64,000 bases of DNA from the human T2T-CHM13v2.0 reference genome, Homo sapiens, in the NCBI RefSeq assembly GCF_009914755.1, contig NC_060925.1. One strand, 5' to 3'. The translations under genes and the position numbers were made by a program. The notes under the pieces are model-generated. The model saw only the letters and a list, made by a program, of their open reading frames with translations. It did no database searches and had not been told where the DNA came from. Positions 40,268 through 41,800 of the stretch are shown piece after piece. The stretch's first letter is position 1, and every line of letters starts with the position of its first letter.

Positions 40268-40368
40268 CTCAACAGAATTGTAGGCCATGTGTCCTATCAC
40301 GAATCCTGATAGAGAAAGAATCGTCAAAACAATGACTTCACAATTCTTTAAACACATCTTCAAAAGCC
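40268..40368 (-). CDS. SLC9C2: SLC9C2 exon 3, GLLKMCLKNCEVIV...AYNSVE
   Basis: Acceptor ctgtttttcacatttag and donor GAG|GTACTG; 101 nt; phase 1 to 0, in frame with both neighbours. Confidence 0.93.
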
Positions 40369-40813
40369 CTAAATGTGAAAAACAGAATAGTTGCATGAGT
40401 ACTCGAAGTACAGTTTCTACCAAATGTGTATCACTTTTGCACCATCCCAAAGTAAGTCAAGACCTTCTGTATTCAATTAATATTTAATGATGTGGCTTAA
40501 CTTTGGGATGGTGCAAAAGTGATACACATTTGGTAGAAACTGTACTTTGAGTACTCGTACAACTATTCTGTTTTTCACGTTTAGTACAATATTTACAAAA
40601 TTACATGAGATAGTCAACACTTTATTATAAAATAGACTTTGTGTTAGATGATTTTCCCTGACTGTAGGCAAATGTGTTATGAAAGCTTTTAAGGTAGGCT
40701 AGGCTCAGTTATGATGTTCAGTAGGTTAGTTGTATTAAATGCATTTCAACTTACAATATTTTAAATTTATGATGGGTTTATTAGGACACAACCTGATAGT
40801 CAAGGAGCATCTG
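40369..40813 (-). mobile_element. MER47A-like Tigger MITE with an inverted duplication of its terminal segment
   Basis: The minus strand begins TA|CAGATGCTCCTTGACT at 40813. 85-bp inverted repeat at 40369-40453 and 40500-40584. Confidence 0.8.
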
Positions 40814-41800
40814 TACTTCTTACAGGTAAGACCAGATAAAGATATGTTTTTTACACTCTTTCTGCAATGCTCTTTACTACTGGAGCATTTGTCTCTATAA
40901 AGGATATAGAGCTAGTCCATGGTCATCAGCAACTTGTGATATCAAAAGTGACCAAGGTCATTAGTGAGTATATTAAAGATTCCCAAAGAAAGCAATTTCA
41001 CTCTTTGATACAATGGGTAAAATTGAAGGAGTTTATACATATTTGCTTCTGTATAGTATTCCTAGTTCCAGAAAGGATTTTAAAGCAGCTATTTTTCCTT
41101 TTTCCTAATCCCTAGTGTTGAATTGTGGACTAAAGCATCTGTGTGTTGAATATGTTACTTGATCTGCATGAATATCATTCTCTATACCTGTTGAATTCTT
41201 AATCATTGTTTAAGAGGTCCTTATTTGTGAAGCCTTTCCTAATTTCCTTCTTGGGGTTGGGGTGGGTTATTTATCTTCCCTGAAGAGAGATTACACCAAA
41301 AGCCATAATAAAATGGACAAAATGAATGACATCAATTATGTAAATCATGAATTGTATGCCTGGGCTCTATTTGTGTGTTTGCTCGCATTGTCCTCCCCTC
41401 ATCTCAGATATTTTGGTCAGGTTAGGTCTGGCCAGGCAGGCAGTGTACAGCTCTTCCTCCTCCTTGTGAGCAGAGAATCTTGACGACAACTTTATAGTTA
41501 TACTTAACACACTGCATAGTAATTATGTGTTTGCCAATCTCTCCCATGAGAGGGCTTCTTGAAGTTAAGTTATTCTTCTTACATGTCTACCACACTACCA
41601 TGCTCAGCAAATGTCACTGAATACAGGAATATAGAATAGACACTACTTATAATTAAATGAAGCGAGATTGACAGTATTCACTCATGTCTTATCGTTTCAA
41701 TGGGCCCCTTCTTTTGATGTTATGTAGTTGTGATGGCTTTCTGCATTGACAAAAGGTTCACAGGGCAGAGGAAAGATGAGTTTCAAAAACAACCACCTAC

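What the first reader, a model, noticed from the sequence alone, without database searches (positions are those of the whole stretch)
40369..40584. SLC9C2 exon 3 acceptor is one arm of an 85-bp transposon-derived hairpin
Seen: 40369-40453 and 40500-40584 are inverted repeats (81/85 identical, 46-nt spacer). The left arm stops exactly at the exon 3 boundary, so the AG, the polypyrimidine tract and a YUNAY branch candidate (tactcAt, A at 40396, position -28) all lie inside the stem. The two transposon termini (agtcaagaccttctg-TA at 40455-40471 and agtcaaggagcatctg-TA at 40798-40815) point the same way instead of being inverted, which indicates the element's end was flipped and duplicated up to the exon. 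In the pre-mRNA the stem would have one G-U pair and three A-C mismatches, two of them at the candidate branch A and at the -6 A. Known: long stems can mask splice sites, and ADARs prefer A opposite C. Inference: the original intron end was replaced by MER47-like DNA, creating a possible structure- or editing-sensitive splicing switch. Skipping this 101-nt exon would shift the frame.
Basis: partly seen in the sequence, partly recalled or inferred. Interest (0 to 1): 0.82.

Follow-up and report, generated by a model that had tools for sequence, protein, structure and literature searches.

The report
Transposon hairpin burying an exon acceptor
The signals that mark the start of exon 3 of the sperm gene SLC9C2 are made of old transposon DNA that can fold tightly onto a neighbouring inverted copy; this is an unusual arrangement, and its effect on splicing is still untested.

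Summary
40369-40453 and 40500-40584 are an 85-nt inverted repeat (81/85) with a 46-nt spacer, and the left arm ends exactly at the AG of SLC9C2 exon 3. The pre-mRNA folds at -139.6 kcal/mol (z -22.9). The four mismatches are as stated: A·C at -6, -28 and -37, G·U at -26.

Both arms are the 5' part of a TA-flanked CAG…CTG, ~365-bp Tc1/mariner-type non-autonomous transposon with thousands of genomic copies. They are each other's closest relatives in the genome (95% versus at most 87%) and share seven departures from the family consensus. The locus has one recognisable 5' terminus, flipped and attached to the left arm.

The family has a built-in acceptor-like motif (pyrimidine run plus AG in 44 of 53 copies) exactly where the arm meets the exon. 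The exon 2|3 junction is colinear in 50 of 50 scorable mammalian orthologue models, so an ancient acceptor position now has a transposon-derived flank.

The best reading is a late inverted duplication with deletion in an old intronic element. Timing and mechanism need other genomes, which I could not reach. The structure- or editing-switch idea is physically plausible but has no expression evidence. The locus is also a candidate target for SOS splicing.

The parts
40268..40368 (-). SLC9C2 exon 3 (101 nt, phase 1 at its 5' end). It is ancient coding sequence, not transposon-derived.
   Evidence: Hub annotation. Translation LLKMCLKN.... The exon 2|3|4 peptides are colinear in 50 of 50 scorable orthologue models. 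Homology to the transposon family stops at 40369.
40369..40453 (-). Left arm: the transposon's 5' internal segment in gene orientation. It supplies the AG (40370-40369), the polypyrimidine tract and the best branch candidate (A at 40396) of exon 3.
   Evidence: Inverted repeat. Alignment to 53 other family copies runs up to the AG. Mismatch positions.
40454..40471 (-). The 5' terminus of the family (CAGAAGGTCTTGACTT, 40469-40454) with its flanking TA (40471-40470), joined to the left arm. About 26 nt of the family's terminal repeats are missing between the terminus and the arm.
   Evidence: It matches the family's terminal consensus; 7 of 2000 shuffles score as well. Other copies match the arm query only from position 19-21 onward.
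40472..40499 (.). Single-copy spacer with no significant likeness to the family terminus. Its last 7-8 nt (TGGCTTA-A) may continue the inverted repeat, with one indel.
   Evidence: 407 of 2000 shuffles score as well against the terminus. It is unique in the window at up to 3 mismatches.
40500..40584 (+). Right arm: the same 5' internal segment, contiguous with the body of a near full-length copy. It is transcribed first, as antisense.
   Evidence: It differs from the family majority consensus at 9 of 79 columns.
40585..40815 (+). Body and 3' terminus (…CATCTG, ending at 40813) of the transposon copy, plus the flanking TA (40814-40815).
   Evidence: Family copies match 40497/40499-40818 at 77-81% identity. 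The body differs from the consensus at 23 of 223 columns.

Best explanation
An old non-autonomous Tc1/mariner (pogo/Tigger-type) transposon lay in intron 2, in + orientation. Much later, about 92 nt of its 5' end were copied in inverted orientation and fused to exon 3, and the original 3' end of the intron was lost.

A single replication-type event with two template switches gives exactly the present order: exon 3 | inverted arm | inverted terminus-TA-flank | arm | body.

The outer junction sits at the transposon's own acceptor-like motif (pyrimidine run, then C/T-A-G). That is probably why this allele still splices at the ancestral exon boundary and survived.

The by-product is an 85-92-bp near-perfect stem with a 46-nt loop, which forms as soon as the acceptor is transcribed. 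It buries the branch candidate, the polypyrimidine tract and the AG. Exon 3 is in the main annotated transcript, so the stem must be melted or out-competed.

The most likely net effect is a weakened or helicase-dependent acceptor, not an evolved switch.

Shown here: the anatomy, the transposon origin, the common origin of the arms, the predicted stability, and the conserved exon junction at protein level. Inferred: the mechanism, the date and the effect on splicing.
For: - Family: 2846 first-look candidates in the same genome, of which 40 were scored at 77-81% identity. Copies are TA-flanked with CAG…CTG ends.
- Closeness of the arms: they are 95% alike. The best other copy among 40 scored of 403 candidates is 87% over 78 nt, or 85% over 85 nt.
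- Shared changes: both arms carry the same 7 departures from the majority consensus of 53 other copies, two of them at weakly defined columns. At an eighth column both depart, but differently. Only 4 differences separate the arms, all transitions.
- Age of the copy: the right arm differs from the consensus at 9/79 columns and the body at 23/223; other copies average 11.5%. The copy was therefore already old when the arms split.
- Terminus: only the left arm carries a recognisable 5' terminus (7/2000 shuffles). The sequence before the right arm does not (407/2000).
- Not a family feature: 0 of 57 other family loci have the arm on both strands.
- Built-in acceptor motif: 44 of 53 other copies keep AG at the equivalent position (36 CAG, 7 TAG, 1 GAG), after a mean of 8.9 pyrimidines in the 10 preceding columns.
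- Ancient junction: 50 of 50 orthologue models in which exons 2, 3 and 4 are all recognised are colinear, reading …LG-G-L/FL….
- Structure: -139.6 kcal/mol, z -22.9. Mean pairing probability over -40..-1 is 0.92, against 0.43-0.66 at the 7 other SLC9C2 acceptors in the window.
Against: - No outgroup genome was available, so the ancestral state, the date and the order of events are untested.
- The inner ends of the arms, in the terminus region, are far less alike than the 85-nt core. That fits gene conversion of two separate insertions, or later decay at the palindrome centre, as well as it fits my model.
- Only 40 of 403 candidates and 40 of 2846 were scored, so a subfamily sharing the 7 changes cannot be excluded. 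At least one other copy shows the same TTTGGGAT variant.
- Folding is thermodynamic only. It says nothing about proteins, helicases or kinetics in testis.
- The orthologue junction evidence comes from automated protein models, and 19 of 69 were not scorable. Five of those lack the exon 3 peptide while having exons 2 and 4.
Confidence: 0.6

Rival explanations
1. Regulated switch. The stem makes exon 3 inclusion depend on ADAR editing at the A·C mismatches, including the branch A at -28, or on regulated unwinding. This would tune NHE11 output in testis.
For: The stem is long enough for ADAR, and three A·C mismatches exist, one of them at the branch candidate. The acceptor region is predicted 92% paired. 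Skipping causes a frameshift with a stop at codon 93. That A opposite C is favoured by ADAR is recalled knowledge, not tested here.
Against: There is no expression, editing or isoform evidence: none appeared in the listings of the SLC9C2 searches (15 of 24 and 12 of 20 papers listed) or in the passages read from five of those papers. The mismatches are ordinary transitions between two drifting copies, so nothing suggests selection. The -6 site lies close to the helix end, where, by recall, ADARs edit poorly. Mouse Slc9c2 is annotated as a pseudogene (PMC10573352, passages read), so the gene is dispensable in at least one mammal.
Confidence: 0.12
2. Two independent insertions of the same family landed head to head. 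Gene conversion then homogenised the 85-nt cores, and a deletion removed the rest of the left copy together with the old intron end.
For: The left arm has its own proper TA and terminus. The terminus-side ends of the arms are much more diverged than the cores, as expected outside a conversion tract.
Against: The right copy has no recognisable 5' terminus (407/2000 shuffles). The model needs at least three events: two insertions within about 30 bp, a conversion, and a deletion ending exactly at the exon. None of 57 other loci shows paired copies.
Confidence: 0.15
3. The stem is recognised by the structure-directed SOS splicing system (AKAP17A-CAAP1-RTCB), which excises base-paired inverted repeats. 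Excision near the arm ends would remove or damage the acceptor, or act together with the spliceosome.
For: According to PMC12779559 (abstract and passages read): base-pairing of inverted repeats is necessary and sufficient. The system works in human cells on reporters, and no human targets are yet known. Hybrid SOS-spliceosome events occur when the element lies 3 nt from a splice site. Here a transposon-derived 85-bp repeat abuts an exon.
Against: The described substrates lie in exons or UTRs and pair through terminal repeats. Nothing shows the system acts on short intronic hairpins or in human testis. There are no data for this locus.
Confidence: 0.08
4. Neutral scar. Helicases and co-transcriptional factor binding make the stem irrelevant, so exon 3 is spliced normally.
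For: Exon 3 is part of the selected RefSeq transcript (hub annotation). The human exons 2-9 keep an open frame. The last five pairs next to the AG are A-U rich and are followed by a mismatch, so the AG may fray.
Against: The polypyrimidine tract and branch candidate sit in the uninterrupted part of a -139.6 kcal/mol stem with a short 46-nt loop. By recalled work on engineered hairpins, this is the geometry that does inhibit splice-site use in cells.
Confidence: 0.3

Closest known systems
Inverted intronic Alu pairs that loop out exons (PMC13019027; search listing and start of abstract only)
   Same: Transposon-derived inverted repeats in introns form RNA stems that change splicing. Such pairs arise in a lineage-specific way in primates.
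   Different: There, the arms sit in the two introns flanking the exon and are Alu SINEs of about 300 nt, typically 70-88% complementary like those in this window. Here, both arms lie in one intron upstream of the exon, derive from a DNA transposon, are 95% complementary, and one arm is itself the acceptor.
SOS splicing of DNA transposons from mRNAs (PMC12779559; abstract and passages read)
   Same: The trigger is base-pairing of DNA-transposon inverted repeats in a Pol II transcript. The pathway is present in human cells and cooperates with a nearby spliceosomal site.
   Different: Known substrates pair through terminal inverted repeats of elements inserted in exons or UTRs. Here the pairing segments are an internal piece duplicated in inverted order, and they lie in an intron. 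There is no evidence of excision.
Transposon-derived splice sites and exonization (PMC7951965, listing and abstract only; otherwise recalled)
   Same: A transposon's internal pyrimidine run plus AG serves as a 3' splice site.
   Different: In exonization the new exon is transposon sequence. Here the exon is ancient, and only its intronic flank has been swapped for transposon sequence, at an unchanged boundary.
Splice-site sequestration by engineered or natural hairpins (recalled: Solnick 1985; Eperon et al. 1988; Goguel et al. 1993; none fetched)
   Same: A stem with a short loop that includes the splice signals.
   Different: Those stems are 10-30 bp. This one is a natural stem of 85 bp or more at the acceptor of the only annotated form of this exon.
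Inverted duplication with deletion by replication template switching (FoSTeS/MMBIR; recalled, not fetched)
   Same: An inverted duplicate next to a deletion, with a single-copy inverted spacer and junctions at short homologies.
   Different: The scale here is about 100 nt, not kilobases. The junction microhomologies cannot be read without the ancestral sequence.

Membership tests
Tc1/mariner (pogo/Tigger-type) non-autonomous DNA transposon | TA target-site duplication flanking the element | tested here: met
   TA at 40814-40815 after …CATCTG, and TA at 40470-40471 next to the flipped terminus. TA flanks both ends of most of the 11 other copies printed from the 29-copy alignment.
Tc1/mariner (pogo/Tigger-type) non-autonomous DNA transposon | Short terminal inverted repeats (CAG…CTG) and many dispersed copies | tested here: met
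   The majority consensus starts CAGATGG… and ends …CATCTG. There are 2846 first-look candidates on many chromosomes, of which 40 were scored.
   No repeat library is on hand. PMC5753468 (passage read) only lists MER47A/B/C under Mariner/Tc1 (Tigger5-related), which fits the class but not the identity.
Loop-out exon skipping by inverted repeat pairs | Arms in the introns on both sides of the skipped exon | tested here: not met
   Both arms (40369-40453 and 40500-40584) lie upstream of exon 3 in intron 2.
Transposon exonization | Transposon sequence inside the mature exon | tested here: not met
   Family homology ends at the AG. The exon 3 peptide is conserved and colinear in 50 of 50 scorable orthologue models.
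ADAR substrate | Long intramolecular dsRNA in the transcript | tested here: met
   Predicted 85-bp stem with 4 non-Watson-Crick positions, -139.6 kcal/mol. This is a prediction only.
ADAR substrate | A-to-G differences between RNA and DNA | not testable with these tools
   No RNA data are available.
SOS splicing target | AKAP17A/RTCB-dependent excision with non-GU-AG junctions near the repeats | not testable with these tools
   Only the trigger (base-paired inverted repeats) is met, by prediction. Criteria are taken from PMC12779559.
Known microRNA or other curated RNA family | Rfam match at the gathering score | tested here: not met
   There are 14 matches at E of 10 or less, all below gathering. 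The best is MIR2606 at 68.9 against 139.7 bits. Thirteen of the 14 are generic long-hairpin microRNA models matching on either strand; the last is a weak lncRNA hit outside the stem.

The most novel reading that the evidence does not exclude
In humans, and probably only in some primates, production of full-length NHE11 depends on resolving an 85-bp transposon-derived stem that contains the whole exon 3 acceptor. Exon 3 inclusion would then be gated by dsRNA-handling machinery: DHX9-type helicases, ADAR, or the AKAP17A-CAAP1-RTCB SOS splicing system. This locus would be one of the first endogenous human substrates in which such machinery decides the use of a constitutive coding exon.
Probability: 0.13. 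Interest if true: 0.7.

Novelty: new variant of a known kind. Interest (0 to 1): 0.45.

Why it matters
Three points make this worth a follow-up:

1. It would be a clean natural case in which an ancient exon kept its boundary while its whole acceptor flank (branch site, polypyrimidine tract and AG) was replaced by transposon DNA in a small inverted duplication. That shows how a transposon's latent splice motif can rescue a rearrangement that would otherwise be lethal to the gene.

2. The acceptor sits inside one of the most stable local stems one could design. The locus is therefore a ready-made test of how far human spliceosomes and helicases tolerate structure at a 3' splice site, and of whether editing or SOS splicing acts on intronic transposon hairpins. 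The SOS splicing authors state that no human targets are known (PMC12779559, Discussion passage).

3. SLC9C2/NHE11 is a testis-specific sperm-head exchanger of unknown function and is annotated as a pseudogene in mouse (PMC10573352). A handicap at exon 3 could bear on whether the human gene is fully functional.

Tried and rejected
- Paralogue intron position. I searched the genome with the exon 4 and exon 3 peptides. Only a weak hit appeared on contig 3 (E 1.29). I fetched 20 kb upstream of it and ran tblastn. The best exon-3-like hit (E 0.15) has no splice-site context. I abandoned this route, so paralogue intron conservation is not established.
- Rfam: nothing at gathering.
- A second, degenerate 5' terminus in front of the right arm looked plausible by eye, but it is not significant (407/2000 shuffles), so I dropped it.
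- Templated origin of the spacer: 40472-40495 has no other match in the window at up to 3 mismatches.
- Family name and age: Pace & Feschotte 2007 is not held. MER47 is only listed as Mariner/Tc1 in PMC5753468.
- Literature on SLC9C2 splicing:
  - Searches: 'SLC9C2'+'exon' found 24 papers, 15 listed. 'SLC9C2'+'splicing' found 20 papers, 12 listed.
  - Passages read: PMC10573352, PMC10049371, PMC10029021 and 10.1101/742379.
  - Outcome: none of the passages read from these four papers, and no listed title or abstract opening, mentions exon 3, a hairpin or editing. The papers were not read in full.
  - Limits: supplements were not opened; the isoform-level tables of PMC10029021 might name the SLC9C2 isoform involved. 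One six-term search was too loose to count as a test, and one search failed on syntax and was re-sent.
- Independent-insertion origin without conversion was rejected, because the arms are closer to each other than to any scored copy.

Full report
**Observation**

The repeat is real and is placed as described. The repeat finder reports arms 40369-40453 and 40500-40584, 85 nt, 95% complementary, 46 nt apart.

SLC9C2 is on the minus strand. Positions 40370-40369 read AG, and exon 3 starts at 40368 (hub annotation).

Pair by pair in the transcribed strand, the stem has four non-Watson-Crick positions:
- A·C at -6
- G·U at -26
- A·C at -28, which is the A of TACTCAT, the best YUNAY candidate, with no AG between it and the acceptor
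- C·A at -37

The next pair beyond the AG (40368/40585) is G·A, so the repeat ends at the exon boundary.

A 261-nt stretch of pre-mRNA folds at -139.6 kcal/mol. Shuffles give -50.8 +/- 3.9 (z -22.9), and 0 of 200 fold as well.

Among the 15 inverted pairs of 40 nt or more within 1 kb in the whole window, all others are 70-88% complementary.

Exon 3 is 101 nt. Leaving it out shifts the frame, with a first stop at codon 93, whereas exons 2-9 are open with it.

**What the DNA is**

A search of the window's own genome with 40369-40830 found 2846 first-look candidates. The 40 that were scored match 40497/40499-40818 at 77-81% identity.

Aligned with their flanks, these copies are about 365 bp, start CAG… and end …CTG. 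Most of the 11 copies printed are flanked by TA on both sides. This is the signature of a non-autonomous Tc1/mariner (pogo/Tigger-type) element.

The label MER47 could not be tested. A Repbase review only lists MER47 under Mariner/Tc1 (PMC5753468, passage).

The right-hand copy (40500-40815) is a normal member from its 5' internal region to its 3' terminus plus TA. It differs from the majority consensus at 9 of 79 columns in the arm and 23 of 223 in the body. The 29 other copies average 11.5%.

The left arm is the same 5' internal segment in the opposite orientation. It is joined to a proper family terminus and TA at 40454-40471; 7 of 2000 shuffles match the terminal consensus as well.

The 28 nt in front of the right arm show no significant likeness to a terminus (407 of 2000) and occur nowhere else in the window.

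The locus therefore holds one 5' terminus, flipped, and one 3' terminus.

**Common origin of the arms**

With the arm plus terminus as the query, the best other genomic copies reach 87% over 78 nt and 85% over 85 nt, against 95% between the arms. This covers 40 scored of 403 candidates.

Against the majority consensus of 53 other copies:
- Both arms carry the same seven departures, two of them at weakly defined columns.
- At an eighth column both depart, but differently.
- Only four transitions separate the arms.

None of 57 other family loci has the arm on both strands, so the hairpin is not a property of the family.

The arms therefore descend from one copy that had already accumulated most of its divergence. 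With recalled primate substitution rates, four differences in 85 nt suggest an event of the order of tens of millions of years ago. The error is very wide, and gene conversion between the arms would make the event look younger than it is.

**Why the arm ends at the exon**

At the position that abuts exon 3, 44 of 53 other copies still read AG (36 CAG, 7 TAG, 1 GAG). This follows an average of 8.9 pyrimidines in the ten preceding columns. The element therefore carries a latent acceptor.

The exon itself is not transposon sequence, because homology stops at the AG. Its boundary is also old. A protein search with the exon 5 peptide returned 69 SLC9C2-like models from primates, rodents, carnivores, bats, ungulates, a xenarthran and a sirenian.

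In the 50 models where exons 2, 3 and 4 are all recognisable, the junction is colinear in 50 of 50, with an invariant junction glycine.

The other 19 were not scored. They include fragments, N-terminally truncated isoforms and a model lacking both exons 3 and 4. Six further non-primate models have exons 2 and 4:
- five without a recognisable exon 3 peptide: pig, lion, two sheep hybrids and a squirrel
- a kangaroo-rat isoform with only part of it

All of these are automated models.

So an ancient acceptor position now has a transposon-derived flank, and the older intron end must have been lost in this lineage. I could not reach any other mammalian genome, so this last step is inference.

**Most likely history (inferred)**

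One replication-type event with two template switches reproduces the present order exactly. Synthesis running from the body through the arm jumps to the other strand a few tens of bases upstream of the element. It copies the flank, TA, terminus and arm in the opposite sense. It then jumps back at the arm's AG-ending motif to the old acceptor and continues into exon 3.

This event inverts the terminus and its flank, duplicates the arm plus perhaps 7 nt of terminus in inverted order, and deletes the old intron end.

The rival is two head-to-head insertions, then gene conversion, then a deletion. It needs more events and leaves the missing right-hand terminus unexplained. However, it would account for the poor match of the inner ends of the arms. 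Outgroup sequence would decide between the two.

**Likely function**

The distal arm is transcribed first, and the loop is only 46 nt, so the stem can close as the acceptor emerges.

In a 330-nt context, the mean pairing probability of -40..-1 is 0.92. The seven other SLC9C2 acceptors in the window give 0.43-0.66.

By recalled work on engineered hairpins, such a geometry inhibits splice-site use. Yet exon 3 is in the selected RefSeq transcript, so the site does work.

I therefore commit to a weakened or helicase-dependent acceptor as a by-product of the rearrangement. I rate a regulated editing switch as unlikely, because the mismatches are ordinary drift between two copies. No expression, isoform or editing data for exon 3 turned up in the listings of two SLC9C2 searches or in the passages read from four of the papers found:
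- the searches:
- PMC10573352 and PMC10049371:
- PMC10029021 and 10.1101/742379:

Their supplements were not opened.

**A newer possibility**

SOS splicing excises base-paired DNA-transposon inverted repeats from transcripts in worms and in human reporter cells. It can cooperate with an adjacent spliceosomal site, and it has no known human targets (PMC12779559, abstract and passages).

This stem meets the trigger condition by prediction only.

**Comparison with known systems**

- It is not loop-out exon skipping, because both arms lie in one intron.
- It is not exonization, because the exon is not transposon sequence.
- It matches no curated RNA family, since Rfam gives nothing at gathering.
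- It works like a splice-site-sequestering hairpin built from a transposon, joined to a transposon-derived acceptor.

**Verdict**

The flip-and-duplicate history is probable but undated. The regulatory role is open. Interest is moderate.

Noticed in passing
window 40340-40342 (minus strand codon, exon 3 residue 9): This genome encodes Cys (…KNCE…). The chimpanzee, bonobo, macaque, snub-nosed monkey, langur and most other mammalian models have Ser (…KNSE…); one bat model also has Cys. This may be a human-lineage or individual substitution.
   Followed up: no
orthologue models P0009, P0045, P0049, P0050, P0065 (and P0024 in part): Five non-primate protein models have the exon 2 and exon 4 peptides but no recognisable exon 3 peptide, and a sixth has only part of it. 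They are automated predictions. They could reflect assembly gaps, model errors or real variability of this exon in other mammals.
   Followed up: no
orthologue models P0010, P0061, P0009, P0022: Several models fuse ankyrin-repeat (ANKRD45-like) and SLC9C2 sequence, or name SLC9C2-like proteins ANKRD45. In the window, ANKRD45 lies just upstream on the same strand (48487 onward), so read-through models seem common.
   Followed up: no
window 40376-40577, both strands: Sub-threshold Rfam hits to long-hairpin microRNA models such as MIR2606, mir-2513 and MIR4221, on either strand. These are structure-only matches, not evidence of a microRNA gene.
   Followed up: partly
family copies L002-L030, 5' terminal 45 nt: The family's 5' end contains a degenerate ~15-nt tandem motif (…ACTTAYGAT…) that is often shortened in individual copies, for example L002 and L006. 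The left arm here lacks about 26 nt of it.
   Followed up: partly
G000 contig 3, 114999808-114999891 (L032): This is the only other genomic hit to the exon 4 peptide (39% over 28 aa, E 1.29, minus strand). It may be the SLC9C1 paralogue, but that was not confirmed.
   Followed up: partly
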